From the human T2T-CHM13v2.0 reference genome, Homo sapiens, in assembly GCF_009914755.1 (NCBI RefSeq), contig NC_060941.1: a stretch of 64,000 bases of DNA, one strand, 5' to 3'. Each line of letters opens with the position of its first letter. Position 1 is the first letter of the stretch. A program made the position numbers and the translations under genes. A model generated the notes under the pieces. That model did no database searches. It worked only from the letters and a program-made list of their open reading frames with translations, and was not told where the DNA came from. This document shows positions 3,191-61,258 of this stretch, piece after piece.

Positions 3191-4838
3191 ACATGAAGAA
3201 ACTCTGGCCTACAGAGATAAAGTAACTTCACAAGTTCATAGAATTTGCTAGAGGCAGACTGGGAGAATTTCCTGATTCTTGCTTACATTATATTGCCTTT
3301 TTTATTTTCAATATGGCCTGACCAAAAAAAAATTGTTGTGGCTTTTTTGTTGCTGTTTTTAAACTACCTCATGGGCTCTCTAAATGAAAACTTTAGTTTC
3401 ACCAGACTCTTCTCCTATCAATCCTGTTACCTGTAGTTGCCCAAAGACAAGTTGTGGAACATTTGAGATTTTCAAGTTATACATAAAGCTTCTAGAAGTT
3501 AAAATTTTCTTTATTCTTTCTAAAACAGGATAATAGAGGCCTCTACAACTCAAATCTGACAAATGTGTTAAAAATTTTTGTTGCTGCAAAACCTTCAGAA
3601 ACAAATAACTGAAGTATGTATAGAGACCCCAGGATCTGAAAAGATGGCAGATTAGTCCATGAGCATTCAAAGATACTTGTTATTCCCAGTATAACATATC
3701 CCATTTTCTCTGGTCATTTTTTTTCTTTATTAACTCTTGTACATTACCAACACAACCCCAGATTTTGCTTATTCTATGAAACCTCCCACACCTAGAATGT
3801 CTACTTAGTGGTCCTGGACAACCACCTTTTTCAAGGCTTTGTTCATAAGAGGACTTACTTCATTAAATCCACTCCCAGTTGGTCACTCCATTACGCCACA
3901 TTTCCTTGTCAGTTGGTACACAATTTTAAACAATTATGCATTTGTCACTGCTGTCTAATTGTTCTCTAGTTTTTCTCTTTCTAAATAATATATCTTGCAA
4001 CAAAACTGTAATTCCTTATAACCAGTTACACACCTTTTTTAAAAAAAATCACCCATAGTACTTAGTTGAAGTTATTTACCATAGTAGGTATTCAACAAAT
4101 GCTTCTTGCATTAATAAATGAAGAACCACAAATACATCCTATGAACAGAATTTCAATTTTAGAATGAATCAATAACACCTTTAGACTACCATCAAGATTG
4201 TGAAAGTGATAATTTTTGGTACATGAATTTAAAGATCATCTAAATTAAACCAAAAGTGTAAAAGTACCTTCATTAAAATGGAGACTACAACCTATAATAG
4301 AGAAATTAACTCTAGATCCCTAATGCTTATTACTCCTTTCGGATACATCATTCCATGACACTGGAAAATATTAGATCTGATAGGGATTTTGCAGGTAGCG
4401 GTAAAACCTTATGTAAGTATTTTTTTAATCCACCCACGAAGGATTATGTTGAATTCCCAGACAAGTATAATTTTCATCTGCATGTCTAACATACCTATAG
4501 CAACATTACTTAATATATGAGTATGTGAAGTATATTTTATTATAGTAGTAGACAAGCAAACTGAATGTGTCCCAGGAAGGGGTCTTTTCCATTAACTTTT
4601 ATAAAGGCTTTCATTTCAAAGTTTCATTAACATCTGACAAGCAAGCTGAAAAAGCTTTGCTTAGAGCTTAGGTTAGGGGCAAAATGCATTTTGGTAGAAC
4701 TATTCCAAGATTACACTGACTGACTGTGCGAGAATATACTAATTTGTTTTGTTTTGTTTTGTTTTGTTTGGAGTGTGGAGAAAAGAGAGAGAAAGGGAGA
4801 GAAGAGTCATGGACCCTACTTTATGGTTGCCATGGATG

Positions 4839-4925
4839 CAAGGTCAGCCTTCCACACTTGGATCTACCAGCAGAGTTCAGACAGGTCAACGTGTGACCGG
4901 CTCAGGCCCTGGGGTTAAAAGTTCA
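4839..4925 (+). promoter_or_regulatory. Nuclear-receptor motif cluster A (DR3 AGTTCAgacAGGTCA, DR2-like GGGTTAaaAGTTCA, CAAGGTCA)
   Basis: Motifs read directly at 4874-4888, 4912-4925 and 4839-4846 in non-repeat sequence. Function inferred. Confidence 0.45.
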
Positions 4926-6164
4926 AGCAGCTATGGAAAAACCAATATGTCCACGCAGAGTATGCTGTACAATTTATTTCAATTTACATCAAGCCATGCA
5001 TATAAAATTTAGATAAATTCCATTCAGATCTGATGTTGCCTGACACACAATGTATGCAAACAGATGTCTGTGGGGCTTTTTCTGTGCTTTAGAAAACAAC
5101 ATTAAATTTAAAAATATGTCTCTGGGATTTCTTTATTGAATTACAAAATGAACATAATTTTAACTTAAATGTTTTCATTCTTTTTTCCAATTTTTTTGTG
5201 TGGGGGTCTTAATAATTTCTCAGTTCTCAATCTACTCTATGTCATATTAAAGAGGATAATGTATATTTACAACTACAGCTTCAGTGTTATTGTAGTTATA
5301 GATTCTATTTATATCCCTTACCACTTTCCGCAAATATTTAGTGATTGATATTTCTGATTTATCTCTGGTTTCTAGCCTCATCTCCATTCCTTTCTACTTT
5401 GAACATAGCAAGTCCTGGAGGCTGCTGGGTCGTCTTCCAGCCACAAGGTGGCTCCCCCAATCCCTTCTCTCAAGCCAATCGATGTACACCTTTGCTGAGT
5501 TCTCCAGGCGGACTACAATTCAGAGCTAATTATGATCTATAAATGCCATTATTTTCATTGTGAAGTAAATGGCTTATGACCAAGACCCTGGTACACTAAG
5601 ATACAATGCAAAATTAGTCTTTAAAAATAGGAGAAAGAAAAATACCTTTGTATTTGCCTAATTTCTCTTCACCCATCCTTCCAAAAGTACAACTGAGCTA
5701 TCCTTAGAGTAAAATAAGAAAAATAATAAAAGGCTCCAGAGGAACCTAATTTTGTTGTCAATGAACATAGTCATAGACTAGACAAGGTCAAATTTTAAGA
5801 AAAGTATACAACTTATTCTCACTTAAACTAGACCTACTTTTGGATTTGATATTTTACCACAAGAGAGTTTTGATGAGAAGACTTTGCAAAACTTTCTTAG
5901 AAGTCCCACATCATGCCATCATTGAAGAACAGTGATCTCCAATACTGCAAGGCTTTAAAAGGAGTGGAAATATTACATATTTCCTTTTTGTTGCTTAGCA
6001 AACATGTTGCATATTTCATAAATGTGATTTTTATAGAAGACATCATAATTTTCTACAGCTGAAATAGGCATAGAAAGACAAATCATTCATCCAATTACAT
6101 GGAAGGTCTTTCTAAAAGTCTGAGTCCTAATTTCTCACAGTTTTTCATTTTCTGTTCTGGAGAG

Positions 6165-6340
6165 AAGCTATTTAACCTTTGGGCAAGTTTCGTTTTCCTT
6201 ATCTGTAAAATGGAGATAAAAATAGGAACTATGCCTCATGGGATTTTTGCCAGGATTAAATGAGTTAATATACATAAAGCACTTACAAAAGTCCTTGTTA
6301 CATAATAAAAGCCATATAAATGTTTGTTATTATTATTATT
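6165..6340 (+). mobile_element. MIR
   Basis: gggcaagtt...tttccttatctgtaaaatggagataa...ggattaaatgagttaatatacataaagcactta...tattattatt. Confidence 0.85.
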
Positions 6341-8399
6341 GTTTATTTGAGCTCAGTTCCTCCTTGACAAGTACTTCATGACACAATCACTTGAGAAAAA
6401 TAAACTTTCATAGATTTCATAAAGACCTGAAAAGTATCATTTTTTTTGATACCTGAGAGCTCTGATCGGGGTAACTGACGGTGTATGGGCTTTTTCTTCC
6501 TCAAGAACTTTAAAAAATTAGCATTTTCATCCCAATTCATGGTATTACTTTCAATATGACACTAAAAAAAGAAACTGCTGATTTCCAAATCTCAAGCAGG
6601 TTTTAGATAACACTTTAAAAAATGCATCATTTTACTAAAGCAAAAAACAACCATAAGTAGTGGTTCTAATAACTTGGTTCCGATATTTGTATTGTAAATA
6701 TTTTCATGTTACTTTTCCACTATATTAAAAAAAAAGTCTTTAGGAGCTTACTCATGCCAGAATATAACTTTGTTAAGCCTCTTGTTAAACTTAGAACGTA
6801 TGAGTCCCCTGCTTCTAACATAAATAAATGTTTTGAATTCCCCAGTAAGCATGGCCTTGACAATTCTCAAGTAAATTTTCTAAGGATATAAATAATATCC
6901 TTAACTTAAGGTGGCCTGTAATAATTCAACCATGAGCAAAGGCTTATGTGGACACAAAATCCTGCATTCACATAAAACCTTGTTTGTATAAGGAAGGGTC
7001 TCTATGCACAGATATAAATATATACATATGTGTTGGTATATATATACATATATGTCCACATATATACTCTCTTGAAACCTCCCATCTATTTGGAAATACA
7101 TATTCAGAGACCAAGAAAGATAATCAAATCCATTTTCAATAGCCAAGGAGAAGAGTATGACATTTTTAAATACCTGCTATACTGTCATGCAACTCTTTAT
7201 TCTTTATTATGTCTGTCAGCTACTACTAGGTGCCTAGTAGACAAATGCTAGTTCTAGTCCTGACCATTTATTTCTATTTGGAATAATTTCAAGCCTAACT
7301 CTCTAGAACTACTTGAAAATGTTGTCTTGGTATGTTGGCCTTGCACCTTTAATGAGGCTTGGAATAAGGGAAGGTGGAAAGGAATCTTTGGGCAATGACA
7401 ATTTGGCACCATTTTTGAGGGAAGCCTGTCTTGGTTTTGCCTGCACTTGCACAAATACTACTTCGAAAGACCCTCTTTCCATTCTGAGCAATATGGTTGC
7501 ATTACCAAAAGCAATATCTTTTATCAGAAGCAGTTTTTGCTGCATGCACCAACTTTCACTATATTCTTAGCAACTCTTTCTTTTATGCCAGTTCCAGACA
7601 TCAGTTAACAAAACCCTTTAACGAACAGATGTACTGAAGAAATGCATCAATTTGTTATTTGCTACAGTTTGGGGTGTCTGTCCTACGGGTTTTCTAGCCA
7701 AAGCCTTATATGTTTCCCAAGAGAAATTTACTTTCATGAGAGAAGAAAATTGAGGCAAATCACTGCTGTTAGACCCTGAAGTCAGAGACACTGGTTTGTT
7801 GTCCTTCTGTACATGTGAAGAAAAACTCCACAGTTACAGAAACAATTGTGGTTCCAATTCATCTCTCATTCTCTCCCAATGTGAAAAATTACAAATGAAA
7901 CTAAATTTCTGTCAATAGAATGTGTATGATTACAGCTGTTCATATTTTCACTCTAATGAAGGGCTGCACATTTAATTGTAAGATTTATTAGAGACTGTAC
8001 ATTGCTATATACATGCAAAACAGTTAATCGACATCTAAAATGCTGGTTGTTTATTCTGACATTAATAATCATATTTCTTAATTTGAAACAAAAAGCATTT
8101 GGGGAAAATGTATTTTGTTTCCTCCAAATCGGAAAATAATAATTTCAATGTAAGAAATAAAAAGGCAAGAGAAAAAAATATTGATTTATGTATGTAAGGC
8201 AGGGGAACAATTAAAGATGCTTAAAAAAAAAAAGTCCATAATCCCCTATTCTGCTGGAAACAAGAGAGTTGATTGCCAGCTTTGTTTGATTTCACAGAGA
8301 TCTCATACGAGGCTGGGTTCATAAACAGGTGAAATGATGGAGTTTATTGCAACACACATCAACACTGAAACTAAATAACTGTGTTGCCATCTCAGTCCC

Positions 8400-9110
8400 A
8401 CTGAAAGACGGATGGTAAACTTGACCTGCCGCTGGTACTATCCGATTGCCATTTTTTATTCCCCCTTCGCCGCCCCCCCAGGCTGAGCCACGTTGAGTAA
8501 ATGCATGTGCACGGTCAGGTCAGACCCCGGGATCGGGTGAAACTCCGTTCACATTTGCATACAGGCGGAGTCTCACAATGAAAGCCCATCTGTTCCCGTC
8601 TCGGAGTACAAATCGAGTGTCACCCAACTCACTGCAAACGACAGAAGCATGGCCATTAGATGGAGGAACACTCAGCTCAGGTTACGGATATGGAACTGCT
8701 GATTTGGGTTTAAATACCTGATCACTGAAGACTTTTCATTATATGTGAACAAAGAATGAACTTTGAACTGCTCAGGAGATACCCTCTCCCCACATTGGGC
8801 ATCCCCAGTTCTATCCATTACCAATACGTAACTGCTATATTTTCCACTGACTCTATTTTTTGTATAAAAATTAGCCAGGCTGAGTGTCACAATGCCCTAA
8901 ATAATTGCTTTTTTGCGGGGGAGGAGGGAAGGATAAGGGTAAGAGGTGGAGCAGCAAGGGATGTTGTAAATAGAAAATGAACTCTGAACTCTATATGCCC
9001 CCAAAGGTCATTAATATCATGGCAGTGCTATTCCTTGAACTTCTAAATTTTACCAGGGTAGAAATTTTAGTTGCCAGAGTTTAACCAAAGTGTGAACTGC
9101 CCCTGCCCTT
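8400..9110. promoter_or_regulatory. CpG-retaining candidate enhancer with nuclear-receptor cluster B and an octamer
   Basis: About 16 CpGs in 8400-8690; ATTTGCAT at 8553-8560; perfect DR1s at 8757-8769 and 8978-8990; AAAGGTCA at 9003-9010; DR5-like at 9093-9109. Confidence 0.55.
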
Positions 9111-10576
9111 TAATTCCTCCCTCCCAAACCCATTCAGTTAAGCGAGGCACCTGCCTCCTAGGATCTTCACTCACGGGCCTGGTTATTCCAAAATAGTTTA
9201 TCAATCACGATCTGTGTCAGAGATTACTTTTCTGTTAAAATTCGGCAAGTACTTTAGAGTTTACAGACAGAAATCACATATATTCTGACACAAAAAGATA
9301 GAGCTGTTCAAGAAGAAACCCCAGGATAATAAGCCTATCCAAGCACCAGCCATGATAAATACAAGGAAAATCATGAGCAAAAATATGGGTAGGATTTCAT
9401 CAAATGCTTTCTTGTCCTATTTTATGGCAAGAATCTATTTCTACAAAAATCTTTCTAAGGAAGACACAAGCATCTGGGGTTTGGCTACTTGTGTTTATAT
9501 TTGAAGTACTTCTGTATTCTGTTACATGAATCACATTTAACATTAACATACGATTTTAGCCATTAGCCCAGTTTGGGCTCCAGTGCATGTGTGGTTACAT
9601 GTCCAAACACACAAACTACTGTAGAGAAAGCAGATTGCCAGTTTTCCTTTTACCGGTTATGCTTCTTGTTTTCCAATCAGTAATAGTGTCACTATATGAA
9701 GTGCAAAGGTAAAATCTGATTGGGTGAAAAAAAACTTTTAATATCTGCAAGAATTTTCTTGATTTGTTTTAAGTAATTAAGTAATTTGTTTTCTTGCATA
9801 TACTTCTCTTTCTTAAAACACTTACTAGAACAATTTTATAGAAAAGAATGTATTAGGATGACGTAGAATCCAGAATGTTTAAAGGCCTTTGGTCTTAAAG
9901 GCTGTGTCTCCTCAGCAAGGGTTTCTATAACACTATGTGAAACTATGTTCTTATTGTTTGTCCTTTAAAAATAATACCAGGGTAAAGAAAAGATTTGAGG
10001 GCTATTTCTTTTTTCATCCCATGCAAGAGCTTATGGTCAACCTTAATGGAAGTTCTACATGCATTAAAAGAGAGAATAGACCCTTTGTTTCAGAAGAATG
10101 ACCAAGACAAGGGTGAATTTCTGTTCCACTTTGTCAAGTTTAAGGGGAAACTGAATTCAGGAAAAGAGAGTGTGAGAGAGAGAGACCCCCAAACAACTTT
10201 CTTAGCTGTCTCCTCATTGCCTCCAATCTTAAACTTATAACGTTTTATTGTTATTCTGTAAACAAGTCAGGAATTTGCATTAGGAGACACTTGGCCATAT
10301 GATATCTTGGAGGTGGGCTGTTTATTTGCATTCCATGCAGCTGGGTGTCTTCTGTGTGATCAGTAACAAAGCAGAAGAAACTAACAAGCCAGAAATATAA
10401 TACCAGAGGTTTTCTTTCTGTCTACATCAGGAGAAAATGCTCCATTAAGGAGGTATAACTACTTTAATTCTATATTCCTAAAGGGATATGGATGAGAAAA
10501 AATCTTCTTGTTCCAAAATGATAAAATAACTTGTTTATAGAAATATGGGTTGCTTGGTTTCTTGTTATGCACTATT

Positions 10577-10770
10577 GGTGGCGGGGCGGTGGGGGGGTGG
10601 GAGGGCGCGGCTGGTGTGAACAGGAACCGAACCTTGAACTTAATTTCCCCTTTGAACTCATGACCTTTGACAAGATTCCCCATGCGTTCCCCTTCAGACA
10701 AATTTCATCACAATTACAGCCCCTTCCACTTGAGTTAAAGATATATAATCATTGATTTGACCTAATTACC
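10577..10770 (-). promoter_or_regulatory. Nuclear-receptor cluster C (perfect DR2, NBRE, DR1-like, RORE) next to a G-rich GC-box/G4 tract
   Basis: Minus strand: AGGTCAtgAGTTCA 10653-10666, AAAGGTCA 10661-10668, AGTTCAaGGTTCG 10628-10640, TAATTAGGTCA 10758-10768. G-runs at 10583-10605. Confidence 0.55.
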
Positions 10771-13100
10771 TGATACATCCCTTTCTTTGCAAGGTGAAGG
10801 CTAAATGTGTGAACAGAAGCTGACCCGTGAAGTTCTGATATCCAATTTTTATTCTAATTATCATAGAACACTTTCAGTCTTACTCTATTTTTCTCAAGTT
10901 TTCTTTTGGTCCCTTCCCTGAACCCACTATTCCTTCAAATTCAACAATGCCCCCTAGGTTTCAAGCTGCTTGGCAACAGACCTTCCAATGCATTATGCAC
11001 TACATGTTCAAAGTGTCATTTTTAAACAAAAAAACTAAAGACCAACTCTGCATTAGAAAGTCGTCACTAATCCCTGTCTTTCATGAAAAAGTCTTCTGAG
11101 GAGATAAAAGAGTGGAAACTAGAAAGTTCCCACAAGGTTCTGAAATTTTCTGACTTCTCAGCATCAATCTATTATGATTCAGACTCTCTCCTAATAATTT
11201 ACAAACTTCAGGTTATAAAGCAAACACAGGCAATATCAATAGAGTTAGTATAATCAGTTTAAACCATAGGGCTCTGTACTTTTTAAAGGGACTATGTGTG
11301 TGATGGTGGGGAGGTGGGGCATGTCCGCTAAGTTTGGTACAACAAATCCCAAGCAAAGACTTTAATAAGAAAGTTTAAATAATGGGATACATTTTTAAAA
11401 ATAAAATATGTGATTTAAAAGCAAAACTAAGGTTGATGGAAACTTTATGAGTTGACTTTAAAAAATGAATTTGTGAATATTCGTCTCTAATTCAAGTTAA
11501 TTTTTAAAAGGAATAAACTGAAATCACAGATAGTTTTCATTATCTTGTCTTAGACTGTTGAAAAAGAAAGATGAATTGCAAAAAGTTAAACAGCAAAGAG
11601 TAAACAAAGAAGAAATTGTTCTCACTTCTTTATGTCATAGTTTATATACAGGGGCATCATGTTCTCTCAGAAACAAAATGACAGTCGATTTTCCTTTATA
11701 TCATTTTTGCATCATATCCCTACTGCCTCCAAACATTAACAGGCTTTATAGGTAGAAGGGACAAAAGACTTGGAAAGAAAACACCGATAAAGTCAAATCA
11801 CCTGTTTATTTTGGTGGAGCTTCTTGTGTCCTCCCTTACAAAAATTCAACAACATTGGAAGAAAAAAGTAATCTTTCATCTGACCATCACAGTGGACCTG
11901 TATCCTGCATTTTATTATCAGCAATTAATTTTAATTATACTTTGAAACCAAAGGCCTCAGCAAACAGGGAGGGAAAAAAAAGTAGGTGGCTAAACTCTTT
12001 AAGTAGGAAATTATCACAGTGTACACAGAGGGAAATCTCTTAAAAATTAACATTTTATGGTGTCAATTGTTACTAGGGTTGGACAGACATAACAAAATAG
12101 GCTGGAAGGTTCCCACAATGTTGGGCCATTAGGTAGTTTCTAAAAGGCAGGTAAAATCTGCTATGTTCCATCACTTAGAAAAGTACAAAAATTATTTTAA
12201 AAAAAATCCGAGGAATACTTGAAAAATGCCTGATCTCAACTCCCACTTCTACCCAAGAACCTGAGGTGTAACCACGAAAGTACAGAGGAATGTCAGTTTC
12301 TTTGATGAAAGCAACACATAGCCAGATGGCTGGGATCCATGTTAAAAATCACATCATGGATTATAAAAACATTGTTTCTAATTCCTGTTGGCTATCATAA
12401 GGGCCTTTGTTAATATATATTAATATTGACATCCCAGGCAACATTCCAGGAAACAGAGAGAAATAGGATGCCTATACTGTGAGAGAAATACTGGATTTGG
12501 CATTATTGTTCTAAGCCTCAAGATAGTTCAATGACAAATGGATGGATAGCAAAATATAACTAAAACAAACTGCCCTCACTAGCAAGTCAGAATTCCAGGT
12601 TTAAGAAGTAAATAAAAAATTAGTACTCATATAATAATTTTAGGATTGACAAAAACAGGGATAGAAATGCTGGAACATTCAGAAAAATGGATAAATGTTA
12701 TATCTCTGGGGTTGAGCATGCTCTGAAATGATCCTCTACAGTCAAGATTCTTAATGTGGTATCTGTGAACACTCTGAAATTATATGCAAATATGCATGTG
12801 TGCTTCCCTGTGCATGCTCATTTTTATGGCAATGAAGAACCACTGCTACATAGTGATAAGAAAAAGAATAACAGGACAAAAATAATTATGACAATTTCCA
12901 AAGAAAAGACGTTGGAAGCCAATGAACAGCCAGCATCATCTCTCATGTAGAACAGTGATTTTCAAACTTTTAAAAATTGATTTCCCCAACTGTAAATTTT
13001 TATTAGACACAACTATCCATTTACTGTGTATACTTACAGATCTTATATATGATACTAATAATTCATTAATATTACAAAAGCTTAATTTATTTCTCATATT

Positions 13101-19229: not shown

Positions 19230-19770
19230 TCTCCTAATCTTCTCTCTAATCACCCTTTCCTCCCAAAATATGAACCTGACTAAGTCAATCTGTGATTTTT
19301 TAAAAAATACTTCACAGCTGCCTATCACCTTCAAAATAAAGGTTGAACATAATCTTCACAATCCATACCCAAATTATTTTTCCAGTTTTATCTTCTCCTG
19401 TTCCTACCTGTGCAGCCTATGGTCTAGCCATAGCCTACTACTGAATTCTACCCAAGAAACCCCTTTGAATGTCTCCTTTCATATCTTTGCTTATAGTTCA
19501 TTATCTGCCTGGCATTATCTTTCCTTATTTTTAACTGCTGACTGTACTTCAAAGCCTACTACCAACTTAAAGTTTTTGTAGAATTTCCCATTCAAGATGG
19601 ATTTTACATTACTTTGTTCTCTTGCTACATTATAAAATTAGCATATTCTACCTTCATTACTTTTGCACATAAATCTATTTATAAGCCACCAGAGGGCAGG
19701 GATAGTCTTGCTCTCCTCTTTATTTCTTAGCACAGAGCTTGCACAGGAAGAGACTGAAATGTTTGCTGAA
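19230..19770 (+). mobile_element. Degraded L2 3' region
   Basis: ctatcaccttcaaaataaa, tttgcttatagttcattatctgcctggca, gagggcagggatagtcttg...gcacagagcttgcacagga...tgtttgctgaattg. Confidence 0.6.
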
Positions 19771-29159: not shown

Positions 29160-32100
29160 ATAATCATATAAGGCTTTTAAAAAATCTAGTTTTCATGCAA
29201 AATACTAGCTTTCATGCAAAATTTAAGAAGAAAGGCCATATATGGCTTTTTTAGTAATAAGCTAGTTAATAAAGCATCTAAGGAAGGAGAAAATATGTTC
29301 ATTGAACATCTGACTTTTTAAAGGGCTAGGCATCATCTTCAAAATTTAATTCTCAATAAATTATAAACTTTAATTGTGAATTTTTATACAAAATATTATT
29401 TCTTAACATACCTTCCCAATAAAATTTTGTCACTCTCTTCACATTATGTTGTAAATTAATCATTGTCCTTACTGATTCTAAGTAGAAAAGTAACTTGTAA
29501 TGCCTTTTTAAAAACTACCTCATGATTTTAGTTTGTTTTTTAAAAGCACTTTTAAAAAATAATTACATTCTTGTTTTAAAATACATTTTCTTTAATTTTA
29601 CCTTTCAGCATAGTTTATTATATTATTACAGCTTTAAATAACTCGATAACATTTATACAAGAATAATCATATTAACTTCTCTGTATGCAGGTTTTCTGAT
29701 TTAAAATATAAAATTTTATTATTTTTGTTGAATAGGCTTACTTTTTATAATTTCTTTTTACATGCTCTCTGGATATGCTGGACTATGAAATGATAATTTA
29801 AGTTAACATCTTGGAAATCCAGGAACTTGCATATAACAAACTTATTAAAATATATTTCAGAAACTAAACTTTAGACGATAACATAAAATATCTGCTTTTA
29901 TCATTTAAAAAATGACGAGCATATTTCATTTTAAAAGGATAGTAAAAGTTTCTTAATCAAAAACTTCTCAGGGATTTTTAACCACAAGGATTTACTGCAA
30001 ACCTGCTGCATCTGCCAGGCCAGTAAAACTTGCCAGCCCACCTCAGTCAATACCTCATATCAAGATGCCACATTTTAAAAATCTTCCTGATCAGGTAAAT
30101 ATTATAGAATATATCCTTTTCTAACTCTGCAGATATAGCTTTCATGGAGACATTTATGAGCGCTGAAAGAATTGAGGGAAAAATAAAACCCACACTACTT
30201 TTTAGGGTTTTAAAAAAATTCTTTATTGGAATTTCAATAATTCATTTAGCAGAGTGTGCAAAAAATTTCATAGAAATCTTTCCTTAATTTCACACTTTTG
30301 CCATATATTGAAAATCATACCCAGCATGGTCTTATATCACTTGGACTGAAAAATATAATATGTTAGAATTATTATGAGTGATAACATGGGTAAGAGTTTA
30401 AAGAACATTATAACTAAATCGGACAGAATTCAATTTTTGCCTATTCTAGATAGGAAAAGTAAACTTAAAGTTGTGAAACCTTTTACCTAGGTTGTGGCTT
30501 CTGCATTGCCAGACCAGGACCTCTGCAATGTTCTGTACAGTGATTCATACTGTAACAGCCATAATTTCAATATACAGTATCTCACCCTGTAACAATCATA
30601 AGCAAACTATGAAATGTGTCACAATTACTTACTCAACTGGCAGAATTAACCAAATCACCACTTGTGCAATTTCAGCTGTTTGCCTTAAATAACTTCTTAA
30701 AAACAAAAAGAAACAACAAAATGTAATAATGTAAGAAATAACATAAGTATGTAAGAAGCAACAAAAAGGCTGACAGAAGGCCAGCATTAAATAAAAATGT
30801 AAACGCTCTGAAAGCTTATGATTTATGTGCCTTCACAAGTTAGTCCTCATTTATTTTTGCCAGATCTAGTTAGTGGAGTAACCTAGCCTTCCTAACTGCA
30901 CTGGAATTGATAGGAACTTTTCCACCATTTGTCCTAAATTTCTTTGCATCTGATAGGCAAAGTCATTATTCTTTCATATACCTTTTTATCTCAATTAGAC
31001 AAAGCTGAGACGTTTTATATTGCTGGAAAATGTTTTTCTGCTGGTAAGACAAGCCATATATATTGCCTCTTAACACTGAATGAAACATATCTAACCAAAT
31101 TAATATATTTAGAGTTAGGGAATTACATTAAAATTTAAAATTTTATCCATGGAACAAATATGAAAGCAGTAAAAAGTTTTCCCTGTTTAGCTCCTTCTAA
31201 TGTATCTCATCCCAAACAAATAGGGAATTTTAATGAATCCAAATTAGGGGGAAAACATTTAAAATACTAATACTGTCAAATTTAAGTAAATTTGCTATTT
31301 TTGAGAAAGCAAACATGTAATAGATTCCACATGAAGAGCTCCTTGAATCATCCTGATGTTTCCTAGGAAAATTAAGGCAGATGTTTGCTTTATAGATGAA
31401 AGCATTTGCACACACAGAGCTAGAAAGCAAAGAAGGTAGAAGTAAACTGCCTTACTTTCAGTTTCAATTATATGATAAAAAAGTTATATTTAAAATAAGA
31501 TACTTAACAGGTACTCAGATGCAGTTTCCTAGGAAATTCCCTTCTATCCTACACTTTGACAAATATTCTGATACCCCAAGAGACCCTGACACCTTCTTAT
31601 AGCTACACAAGTTAAACTTCTGCAAACAATTTCTATATTATACTGTTATCAACTTTAATATTCAAAAAAATTAGTCATTGTAATTTCCCTAATAGTGCTA
31701 AAAGAAAGAGCACAAAATATTAAGCTAATTAATAAATTCTGTTTTAAAAATAAGTATTCTAGAATGAACCTTTTCCCAATAGCCAAGTAAAGACAGATCC
31801 CTTCAGAGAGCTTTGTGAAAATATATCAAGTAACTTAAAAACAATAAAGAATGTATACCCAAGAACAATCACAACTTTTTGGTGACCAAAGCAATTGAAA
31901 TATGCATAGTAGTAAATAGCACAGGTATAACTAAAGGCCATCTTCTGCTTCTCTACTCAGATAAGAATGTTCCAGAGTTTTTATAAAAATCCACAATTTT
32001 ATCTGTCTCATGAAAGCACGGCCTTTACATTAAAAAAAAATCAGGCCCAGCAGGTATCTAAGAAATCTGACACAGATCAAGAAATCAAGGTAAGATTGCC

Positions 32101-39851: not shown

Positions 39852-39986
39852 TTCTATATTCTTCTAGCACTCTTTGTAGTTTTCACAAAGTCATGACCTA
39901 AACACAATATGCAGCATGCTTCTATATTCTTCTAGCACTCTTTGTAGTTTTCACAAAGTCATGACCTAAACACAATATGCAGCATG
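39852..39986. repeat. Perfect tandem duplication of a 67-bp unit (period 68)
   Basis: ttctatattcttctagcactctttgtagttttcacaaagtcatgacctaaacacaatatgcagcatg at 39852-39918 and 39920-39986, one C between. Confidence 0.97.
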
Positions 39987-41188: not shown

Positions 41189-41238
41189 GCCAAAATGTTT
41201 GGAGTATGAATCTGCCAAAATGTTTGGAGTATGAATCT
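41189..41238. repeat. Perfect 25-bp tandem duplication
   Basis: gccaaaatgtttggagtatgaatct, two copies. Confidence 0.95.
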
Positions 41239-43343: not shown

Positions 43344-43445
43344 CCTCATCCTGATAATCTGACAAAAAGGGTGCATCGGATGTGAGGGACAGGCCAAGAG
43401 TCCCGCTGTGATTATCATCAGAGCTGTCCTGTCCAATGTCTCCCC
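43344..43445 (-). CDS. SKAP1: SKAP1 exon 4, 102-nt coding exon ([35 protein letters not shown]), linker before the PH domain
   Basis: Minus strand: branch-like gattaac, pyrimidine tract ttttctgtcttttttgtccctcag, exon, donor GAGG|gtgagt. Translation matches recalled human SKAP1 residues ~60-94. Phase 1-1. Confidence 0.97.
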
Positions 43446-61232: not shown

Positions 61233-61258
61233 CTTGGGGCTGAAAATCCCAATAGTAC
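61233..61258 (-). CDS. SKAP1: SKAP1 exon 3, 26-nt coding microexon (codons ~51-60, (R)YYWDFQPQ(G))
   Basis: Minus strand reads ttttttcccccttgtatttcag|GTACTATTGGGATTTTCAGCCCCAAG|gtgagt. The peptide matches recalled SKAP1 ...IKARYYWDFQPQGG... and its phase joins the 43344-43445 exon in frame. Confidence 0.96.

What the first reader, a model, noticed from the sequence alone, without database searches (positions are those of the whole stretch)
4839..10770. Array of nuclear-receptor direct repeats in SKAP1 intron 4: candidate retinoid/NR enhancer system near HOXB
Seen: in ~6 kb of non-repeat DNA there are four perfect RGKTCA direct repeats (DR3 4874-4888; DR1 8757-8769; DR1 8978-8990; DR2 10653-10666). 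There are also near-perfect DR5/DR2/DR1 sites, two AAAGGTCA (NBRE) and one RORE, grouped in three clusters. My rough uniform-background estimate is about 0.06 perfect pairs expected for spacers 1-5 on both strands in 6 kb. Known: RAR/RXR bind DR1/DR2/DR5, SKAP1 flanks the 3' end of HOXB, and 3' Hox genes are driven by RAREs. Inference: these modules form a long-range retinoid/NR-responsive enhancer array for HOXB and/or SKAP1.
Basis: partly seen in the sequence, partly recalled or inferred. Interest (0 to 1): 0.8.

Follow-up and report, generated by a model that had tools for sequence, protein, structure and literature searches.

The report
Retinoid receptor sites in SKAP1 intron
A 6-kb stretch of a SKAP1 intron holds a dense, non-random set of retinoic-acid-receptor-type binding motifs, and it is most likely the human version of an already published enhancer cluster through which retinoic acid acts on the neighbouring HOXB genes.

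Summary
About 0.08 are expected from shuffles (0 of 3000 reach 4). Non-Alu sites in 258 kb of neighbouring real SKAP1 DNA give about 0.07. The sites are single-copy, not Alu-derived. Two of the three modules are the only non-Alu CpG-retaining patches in the window.

One detail is new. Modules B and C contain four same-strand copies of a 28-nt composite of three half-sites, a DR5 and a DR1 sharing the middle one. A pattern fitted to three of them occurs 7 times in the whole genome, 3 of them here.

López-Pérez et al. 2021 (PMC8608873) reported four strong RAR ChIP-seq sites in skap1 intron 4 of zebrafish and mouse. One is conserved to human and works as an RA-dependent, hoxb1b-like enhancer. 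The 5-kb bins holding modules B and C loop to HOXB2-HOXB9 in human cells. SKAP1 itself is RA-induced.

I could not test human RAR occupancy, base-level conservation, or exact orthology to the published peaks. Novelty is low and interest modest.

The parts
4839..4925 (+). Module A. Holds CAAGGTCA (4839-4846), a perfect DR3 (4874-4888) and a 1-mismatch DR1/DR2 (4912-4925). All half-sites are on the + strand. It lies inside the terminal exon of the lncRNA SKAP1-AS2 (4774-5272). This is the weakest member of the array.
   Evidence: hub annotation; single copy in the genome; CpG o/e 0.37
8316..8522 (.). Module B, proximal part. Holds a DR5-like site at 8316-8332 (+, 1 mismatch), TGACCT at 8422, overlapping GGTCA-GGTCA at about 8512-8522, and an octamer at 8553. 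It is embedded in the CpG-retaining block 8400-8720.
   Evidence: (16 CpG, o/e 0.76 against 0.19 window-wide)
8743..8770 (-). Composite unit 1: TGAACA-n5-TGAACT-n1-TGAACT. This is a DR5 and a perfect DR1 (8757-8769) sharing the middle half-site.
   Evidence: (family D1)
8964..9010 (-). Composite unit 2. The first half-site is degenerate. A perfect DR1 (8978-8990) is followed by a DR5-like site (8985-9001), the mirror arrangement. AAAGGTCA on the + strand sits at 9003-9010.
9036..9109 (-). Further half-site at 9036 and a DR5-like site at 9093-9109 (1 mismatch), closing module B.
10614..10641 (-). Composite unit 3: GTG-TGAACA-n5-CGAACC-n1-TGAACT.
10653..10666 (-). Perfect DR2 (TGAACT-ca-TGACCT). 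Its second half with its 3' flank reads AAAGGTCA on the - strand.
10758..10771 (-). DR2-like site (1 mismatch), RORE-like with an A/T-rich 5' extension on the - strand.
10807..10834 (-). Composite unit 4: GTG-TGAACA-n5-TGACCC-n1-TGAAGT.
8201..8850 (.). CpG-retaining, GC-richer patch. With 10551-10850 it is one of only two CpG-dense stretches in the window that do not coincide with hub-listed masked (Alu-size) repeats.
   Evidence: single copy
10551..10850 (.). Second non-repeat CpG-retaining patch. It coincides with module C.
   Evidence: single copy

Best explanation
The stretch is a cluster of composite nuclear-receptor response elements. It is most likely the human counterpart of the RAR-bound enhancer cluster published for the fourth intron of Skap1.

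Proposed mechanism (inferred):
1. RAR/RXR heterodimers sit on the DR5/DR2-type pairs in modules B (8.3-9.1 kb) and C (10.6-10.8 kb), and perhaps A (4.84-4.93 kb).
2. On binding retinoic acid they exchange co-repressors for co-activators.
3. The activated modules act over about 230 kb on the 3' HOXB genes, with which this DNA is in contact, and over about 135 kb on the SKAP1 promoter.
4. The interleaved DR1 elements let other receptors (RXR homodimers, NR2F/COUP-TF, HNF4, TR2/4) use the same DNA.

Shown: motif enrichment, repeated composite grammar, single-copy status, CpG retention, and HiChIP contact of the containing bins with HOXB.

Taken from the literature on orthologues: RAR occupancy and RA-dependent enhancer activity.

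Inferred: that the human modules are those elements, and that they respond to RA.
For: - Four perfect DRs against about 0.08 expected. 0 of 3000 region shuffles and 0 of 400 window shuffles reach the observed clustering.
- In 264 kb of real SKAP1 DNA, 4 of the 7 non-Alu perfect DR1-5 lie here.
- The two densest 1-kb windows for relaxed DR1/2/5 sites are modules B (6) and C (5), out of 123 non-Alu sites.
- 11 of the 32 relaxed sites in the window lie in 8001-12000.
- A 28-nt three-half-site composite recurs four times on one strand. A pattern fitted to three copies has 7 genome-wide hits, 3 of them here, while the reversed control has 4.
- Modules B and C share no similarity beyond the composite. 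So the recurrence is not a recent duplication.
- B and C are the only non-Alu CpG-retaining patches in the window.
- PMC8608873 reports four strong RAR sites in skap1 intron 4 of zebrafish and mouse. One is a fish-to-human HCNE with a DR5-like motif, and the reporter is RA-induced and abolished by BMS493.
- Composite elements are typical of RAR/RXR-bound regions.
- Bins hg19 chr17:46,385,000-46,395,000, which must hold B and C, loop to HOXB2-HOXB9.
- SKAP1 is RA-induced across vertebrates.
Against: - I could obtain no human RAR/RXR occupancy data or cross-species alignment. No vertebrate genome other than this one is held.
- Orthology to the published peaks rests on position (same intron, about 230 kb from HOXB2) and motif content only. 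The zebrafish primers gave no usable anchor.
- Most half-sites are the AGTTCA variant. Two of the four perfect repeats are DR1, on which RAR/RXR is classically non-activating (recalled textbook rule).
- The first half-site of every composite is non-consensus (TGAACA).
- HiChIP loops to HOXB are also listed for a neighbouring bin (46,375,000). They were measured in ovarian cancer cells without RA, so they show domain-level contact, not module-specific or RA-dependent contact.
- RefSeq lists no functional element here (hub note).
- Module A has the opposite strand, no composite unit and weak CpG retention. It may be unrelated.
Confidence: 0.7

Rival explanations
1. The modules are a nuclear-receptor hub used mainly by non-retinoid receptors. 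HNF4, NR2F/COUP-TF, PPAR/RXR or TR2/4 would use the DR1s, and VDR/RXR the DR3. On this reading they form a tissue-specific (endoderm, T-cell or other) SKAP1 enhancer or silencer without a direct RA input.
For: - Two of the four perfect sites are DR1 and one is DR3. These are spacings classically preferred by other receptors (recalled).
- Chatagnon et al. suggest such composite regions are hubs for several receptors.
- The zebrafish reporter is also expressed in gut.
Against: - The orthologous intron is directly bound by RAR in two species, and one element is strictly RA-dependent.
- Every composite unit contains a DR5-type spacing, and module C has a perfect DR2.
- SKAP1 is RA-induced.
Confidence: 0.15
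2. The cluster is a motif coincidence or an evolutionary relic with no present regulatory function. It would be a chance find among very many windows read for many motif families.
For: - The finding is post hoc.
- Half-site density alone is unremarkable: 241 of 3000 shuffles reach 19.
- 5 of 3223 arbitrary hexamer families also reach 4 loci in 6 kb.
- No RefSeq functional element is listed here.
Against: - The same place is independently flagged by CpG retention, by relaxed-motif density in 264 kb and by a composite that is near-unique in the genome.
- The published RAR sites lie in the same intron.
Confidence: 0.05
3. The array is a real RA-responsive enhancer cluster, but its target is SKAP1 and/or the lncRNA SKAP1-AS2 only. 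HOXB contact would be a by-product of sharing one chromatin domain.
For: - SKAP1 is the top RA-responsive gene in a multi-species meta-analysis and is strongly RA-induced in zebrafish.
- Module A lies in the SKAP1-AS2 terminal exon (hub annotation).
- HOXB loops are not specific to the module bins.
Against: - The zebrafish element drives a hoxb1b-like pattern, not a skap1-like one. The authors report Hi-C contact with hoxbb genes as data not shown.
- Another SKAP1-intron enhancer in this same window regulates HOXB7/8 but barely SKAP1.
Confidence: 0.1

Closest known systems
RAR-bound sites in the fourth intron of skap1/Skap1 (López-Pérez et al. 2021, Sci Rep, PMC8608873)
   Same: - Same gene and, as far as I could check, the same intron.
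- Several separate RAR-type modules: four peaks there, three to four modules here.
- A DR5-like motif.
- More than 200 kb from HoxB in mammals. Here modules B and C lie about 225-235 kb from the HOXB2 bin.
- Proposed target is HOXB.
   Different: - That work gives zebrafish coordinates and a mouse browser view only.
- The alignment figure is not held, so which human module (if any) is the conserved one is not established.
- The human motif map, the perfect DR1/DR2/DR3 sites and the four-fold three-half-site composite are not described in the text I read. None of six motif strings was found in a relevant paper.
Composite hormone response elements of RAR/RXR-bound regions (Chatagnon et al. 2015, NAR, PMC4446430)
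   Same: More than two half-sites with overlapping DR spacings that share a half-site. Proposed there as hubs for several nuclear receptors.
   Different: The passages I read highlight DR2+DR0 (=DR8) and DR0 or ER2 embedded in DR5. The DR5+DR1 arrangement seen here is not named in them. I found no Skap1 entry in the supplements I could search; file 1 was not searchable.
Intra-cluster and flanking HOXB RAREs (Hoxb1 3' and 5' elements, DE-RARE, B4U-RARE; recalled from the Krumlauf-laboratory literature, not read here)
   Same: Direct repeats of the same half-site that confer RA response on HOXB genes, some shared between several genes.
   Different: Those lie within or next to the cluster. This array is about 230 kb away, inside another gene.
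rs9303542 enhancer in a SKAP1 intron (PMC8017555)
   Same: It lies in the same window. The published guide RNAs map to 31543-31605. It is a SKAP1-intronic enhancer acting on HOXB genes at long range: deletion lowers HOXB7/8 and dCas9-VP64 raises them.
   Different: It is about 21-27 kb from the array, was studied in ovarian cancer cells, and has no stated link to nuclear receptors or RA.
Alu-borne DR2 retinoid response elements
   Same: A perfect DR2 of the same half-sites. Eighteen such 14-mers occur in the 264 kb examined.
   Different: The four reported sites are single-copy, not Alu. Their sequences differ from the Alu 14-mer.

Membership tests
Retinoic acid response element (RAR/RXR site) | Two RGKTCA half-sites in direct orientation spaced by 1, 2 or 5 nt | tested here: met
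   Perfect DR1 x2 and DR2 x1. DR5-like sites with 1 mismatch at 8316, 8746, 8985, 9093 and 10810. The DR3 at 4874 is not a classical RAR spacing.
Retinoic acid response element (RAR/RXR site) | Occupied by RAR/RXR in cells | not testable with these tools
   Published for zebrafish and mouse intron 4. I found no human data. SKAP1 is absent from the searchable supplements of PMC4446430, PMC7259794 and PMC11959543.
Retinoic acid response element (RAR/RXR site) | Confers RA-dependent transcription | not testable with these tools
   Shown only for the zebrafish 812-bp fragment.
Published Skap1 intron-4 RAR cluster / HCNE | Lies in intron 4 of SKAP1 | tested here: inconclusive
   The region lies 3' of the 102-nt exon at 43344-43445. 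That exon joins in frame to the 26-nt exon at 61233-61258. The transcript has 13 exons, so 12 introns, as in the zebrafish annotation 'intron 4 of 12'. The two exons upstream are outside the window, so I did not count the number 4.
Published Skap1 intron-4 RAR cluster / HCNE | More than 200 kb from the HOXB cluster in human | tested here: met
   The rs9303542 guides map to 31543-31605, and that SNP is in hg19 bin 46,410,000-46,415,000. So modules B and C fall in 46,385,000-46,395,000. The HOXB2 bin is 46,620,000. This assumes no large indel between assemblies.
Published Skap1 intron-4 RAR cluster / HCNE | Sequence alignable from zebrafish to human around a DR5-like motif | not testable with these tools
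   No fish or mouse sequence is held. Zebrafish primers give 0 matches at <=3 mismatches. The best local look-alike of the forward primer is at 11219-11237 (score 13, unique top). The reverse-primer look-alike (score 9) is one of 20 such in the window. Inconclusive.
Conserved non-coding element | Purifying selection across species | not testable with these tools
   Only proxies are available: CpG o/e 0.76 at 8400-8720 and 0.47 at 10560-10840, against 0.19 window-wide, plus single-copy status.
Alu-derived DR2 element | Site lies in an Alu and matches the Alu DR2 14-mer | tested here: not met
   The sequences differ from the 14-mer seen 18 times in 264 kb. The modules have no second copy in the genome.
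Vitamin D response element (DR3) | Two half-sites spaced by 3 nt | tested here: met
   Perfect DR3 at 4874-4888. This is motif only; occupancy was not tested.

The most novel reading that the evidence does not exclude
The four same-strand composites are a selected grammar rather than an accumulation of half-sites. Read on the SKAP1-sense strand, each is AGTTCA-n1-RGKTCA-n5-TGTTCA.

By the textbook polarity rules (recalled), RXR takes the 5' half of a DR5 and the 3' half of a DR1. The shared middle half-site would then hold RXR in both registers. Its partner could sit upstream (DR1, non-activating or open to COUP-TF/HNF4/RXR) or downstream (DR5, RA-activating).

That would make each unit an RXR-centred toggle. 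Paired units about 200 bp apart (221 and 193 bp) would then set the threshold or timing of the HOXB and SKAP1 response to RA.
Probability: 0.15. Interest if true: 0.55.

Novelty: already known. Interest (0 to 1): 0.3.

Why it matters
RA-driven, ordered activation of HOX genes is a classic problem. Most known RAREs lie inside or next to the clusters. A distant array inside SKAP1 extends the HOXB regulatory landscape by more than 200 kb. It also lies within a cancer-risk region (17q21.32) whose variants loop to HOXB genes.

That point was made in print in 2021 for fish and mouse. What this window adds is a base-level human map of the candidate sites and a repeated DR5+DR1 composite that could be tested directly.

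Tried and rejected
- **Zebrafish reporter primers as anchors.** No match at <=3 mismatches. Local look-alikes are too weak to place the conserved element.
- **Looking for the sites in print.** Six motif strings typed into the paper search gave one irrelevant hit, in a B2 SINE paper. Five further searches found only PMC8608873 and its preprint describing RAR sites in SKAP1. The SKAP1-AS2 search gave 3 papers, judged from titles and abstract starts only and not opened.
- **Peak tables.** No Skap1/SKAP1 entry in the searchable supplements of PMC4446430 (file 1 not searchable), PMC7259794 or PMC11959543. Table S6 of PMC8608873 gives zebrafish coordinates only.
- **Phrase search across table cells** found nothing, probably because of tabs. 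I read part 80 of the table instead. Which of the two cell lines that sheet covers I did not establish.
- **Duplication origin of modules B and C.** Rejected. The best local alignment is the composite itself, score 25, against a median of 23 and a top of 34 for 79 other chunks of the window.
- **Alu or other repeat origin.** Rejected.
- **Paralogous copy elsewhere (for example near HOXA/SKAP2).** None found at the sensitivity of the own-genome search. Weak paralogy cannot be excluded.
- **Matched background on the HOXB side.** Known HOXB RAREs could therefore not serve as positive controls.
- **A CTCF-type core near the array.** None found. The only one in the window is at 19686 (consensus recalled).
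Full report
**What is there.** Reading the sequence and an exhaustive scan confirm the four perfect RGKTCA direct repeats at the stated places:
- DR3 at 4874-4888 on the + strand
- DR1 at 8757-8769 on the - strand
- DR1 at 8978-8990 on the - strand
- DR2 at 10653-10666 on the - strand

The window has 143 half-sites, 19 of them in the region. It has only one other perfect DR1-5, at 51120. That one is the 14-mer typical of Alu (recalled) and lies in a hub-listed masked repeat. The two AAAGGTCA sites and the RORE-like site are present. They are pieces of the same clusters and are not enriched on their own.

**Is it more than chance?**
- Dinucleotide shuffles of the region give 0.082 perfect DR1-5 on average, and 0 of 3000 reach four. 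0 of 400 shuffles of the whole window have four within 6 kb.
- Shuffles understate local repetition in real DNA, so I fetched the 200 kb upstream and scanned 264 kb of contiguous SKAP1 sequence. It holds 25 perfect DR1-5. Eighteen are the Alu-type 14-mer and 7 are other; four of those seven are the reported sites. The non-Alu rate elsewhere (3 in 258 kb) predicts 0.07 per 6 kb.
- With one mismatch allowed for DR1/2/5 there are 123 non-Alu sites in 264 kb. The two densest 1-kb windows are 8.1-9.3 kb (6 sites) and 9.9-10.9 kb (5 sites). The next best has 4.
After masking tandem arrays and merging nearby sites, 5 of 3223 reach four loci in 6 kb, and one of the five overlaps the NR half-site. Unmasked it was 88 of 2352, almost all from tandem arrays.
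- The half-site count by itself is unremarkable: 241 of 3000 shuffles reach 19. The signal is in the pairing.

**What kind of DNA is it?** The three modules have no second copy in the genome. Searching the whole 5.9 kb found only an old MIR-like repeat at about 6149-6358, at 71-81% identity to many loci (39 of the 40 scored matches). It carries no site.

The window is CpG-poor (o/e 0.19). All 300-bp windows with 7 or more CpGs coincide with hub-listed Alu-size masked repeats except two: 8201-8850 (o/e 0.76 for 8400-8720) and 10551-10850. These are modules B and C. CpG retention fits purifying selection or germline hypomethylation at a bound element. It is a proxy, not a conservation test.

Module A (4839-4925) differs from the other two:
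- Its half-sites are on the other strand.
- It lies in the terminal exon of SKAP1-AS2. An AG acceptor sits at 4772-4773 and an ATTAAA at 5246-5251, ahead of the annotated end at 5272.
- Its CpG retention is weak.

**A repeated composite.** The repeat finder returned one four-member family of 28 nt, all on the same strand, at 8743, 8964, 10614 and 10807 (aligned).
- Each copy is three half-sites, TGAACA-n5-TGAMCY-n1-TGAACT. This is a DR5 and a DR1 sharing the middle half-site.
- Copy 2 has a decayed first half-site and instead a DR5-like pair downstream, the mirror arrangement.
- Copies 1, 3 and 4 share a TG or GTG extension. GTGTGAACA occurs twice in the window, both times at unit heads. TGTGAACA occurs six times, three of them at unit heads.
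- Spacing within modules is 221 and 193 bp.
- With at most 2 mismatches over the 18 half-site positions, the arrangement occurs 5 times in 264 kb. Four are in modules B and C, and one of those four is an overlap by-product. The median for the 81 spacing combinations tried is 1.
- A pattern fitted to copies 1, 3 and 4 has 7 hits in the 3.1-Gb genome on both strands, three of them these. Its reversed control has 4. The three self-hits are by construction. The informative part is that the rest of the genome holds only about the control number.
- Modules B and C share nothing else: local score 25 against a median of 23 for 79 other chunks. The recurrence is therefore not a recent duplication. It looks like a maintained grammar, or a very old duplication of which only the sites survive.

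**What the literature says.** Six searches found one work on this, López-Pérez et al. 2021 (PMC8608873, with its preprint). I read section 7 in full, further passages, supplement hits and part 1 of Table S6. It reports the following:
- There are four strong RAR ChIP-seq sites in the fourth intron of skap1 in zebrafish. It reports the same in mouse, using the F9-cell data of Chatagnon et al.
- One site (RARaa_peak_594) lies in an element alignable from fish to human, with a DR5-like motif.
- An 812-bp zebrafish fragment drives a hoxb1b-like pattern in hindbrain and gut. The pattern is boosted by RA and abolished by BMS493.
- The authors conclude that HoxB regulation by RA involves sites more than 200 kb away in mouse and human.

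Chatagnon et al. (PMC4446430, passages) state that most RAR/RXR-bound regions carry composite elements of more than two half-sites. They propose these as hubs for several receptors.

SKAP1 is the top gene in a multi-species RA meta-analysis (PMC7923837, Table 2 passage). It is induced 12.5-fold by RA in zebrafish endoderm.

**Contact with HOXB in human cells.**
- The guide RNAs that flank rs9303542 in PMC8017555 (Supplementary Table 7) map to 31543-31562 and 31587-31605 of this window. That validated HOXB7/8 enhancer therefore lies 21-27 kb from the array.
- The SNP is in hg19 bin 46,410,000-46,415,000. Assuming collinearity, modules B and C must lie within 46,385,000-46,395,000, whatever the SNP's exact position. 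Module A lies in 46,380,000-46,390,000.
- Part 80 of that paper's loop table covers both bins. For bin 46,385,000 it lists significant H3K27ac-HiChIP loops to the bins of HOXB2/HOXB-AS1, HOXB3, HOXB4/MIR10A, HOXB5, HOXB6, HOXB7, HOXB8 and HOXB9.
- For bin 46,390,000 the part read breaks off after the HOXB3 bin. Before that it lists two unlabelled bins near 46.56 and 46.61 Mb.
- The neighbouring bin 46,375,000 shows similar loops, and only variant-bearing bins are listed. This therefore shows domain-level contact in RA-untreated cancer cells. It does not show module-specific or RA-dependent looping.
- The distance from B and C to the HOXB2 bin is about 225-235 kb, matching the paper's '>200 kb'.
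- An endometrial HiChIP study also lists HOXB1-B9 as targets of 17q21.32 variants (PMC6826789, table passage).
- 4C in mouse embryos shows HoxB contacts increasing toward the Skap1 desert (PMC9286507, one passage).

**Best reading.** I put 0.7 on this being the human counterpart of the published Skap1 intron-4 RAR cluster. On this reading RAR/RXR bound to the DR5/DR2-type pairs of modules B and C (A uncertain) confer an RA response on 3' HOXB genes and on SKAP1. The interleaved DR1s are open to other receptors.

The following are shown:
- the enrichment
- the repeated composite grammar
- single-copy status
- CpG retention
- contact of the containing bins with HOXB

Occupancy and RA dependence are borrowed from orthologues. 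The identity of human modules with published peaks is inferred from intron, distance and motif content. The exon number itself was not counted. The two exons in the window join in frame, and the transcript has 12 introns as in zebrafish.

**Rivals.**
- A hub used mainly by non-retinoid receptors (0.15).
- A real RA enhancer that serves only SKAP1 or SKAP1-AS2 (0.10).
- Coincidence or a relic (0.05).

**What could not be done.** No vertebrate genome other than this one is held, so I could not test conservation or orthology. The zebrafish primers gave no usable anchor. I found no human RAR peak table that mentions SKAP1. File 1 of PMC4446430 was not searchable, and figures and PDFs are not held, so relevant data may exist that I could not see.

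**Verdict.** The one new element is the four-fold DR5+DR1 composite and the idea that it acts as an RXR-centred toggle. That idea is speculative (0.15). Interest is 0.3.

Noticed in passing
window 31543-31605: The two dCas9-VP64 guide RNAs published for the ovarian-cancer risk SNP rs9303542 map here exactly. So the experimentally validated SKAP1-intron enhancer of HOXB7/HOXB8 (PMC8017555) lies in this window, 21-27 kb from the receptor-site array.
   Followed up: partly
L021:3569-3582 and L021:4361-4399 (window -6431 and -5639..-5601): Just left of the window there is another non-Alu perfect DR2 and, 800 bp on, four same-strand half-sites within 39 nt (a DR1-like pair followed by a DR5-like pair). 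This is the next-densest 1-kb window for relaxed sites in 264 kb. It could be a further member of the array.
   Followed up: partly
window 8553, 10273, 10324: Three of the window's six perfect octamer motifs (ATTTGCAT, recalled consensus) lie in or beside modules B and C. A paper I read only in one passage links OCT4 to HoxB activation and to contacts toward Skap1 (PMC9286507).
   Followed up: no
window 6149-6358: An old interspersed repeat (MIR-like) is the only part of the 5.9-kb region with many weak copies elsewhere (71-81% identity). It carries no receptor site.
   Followed up: yes
window 4774-5272: Module A, with the perfect DR3, lies inside the terminal exon of the lncRNA SKAP1-AS2. An AG acceptor sits at 4772-4773 and an ATTAAA signal 21 nt before the annotated end.
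   Followed up: partly
window 39852-39986 and 41189-41238: Two perfect two-copy tandem duplications (68-nt and 25-nt units, 100% identical copies). They look like very recent duplications or assembly-specific variants.
   Followed up: no
G000 C10:83544409, C14:96611814, C18:69062011, C20:53990029: These are the only other genome-wide matches to the three-half-site pattern derived from the array. Their number equals the reversed-pattern control, and I did not look at their neighbourhoods.
   Followed up: no
window 19686-19698: The only match in the window to a relaxed CTCF-type core (recalled consensus). None lies within the array.
   Followed up: no
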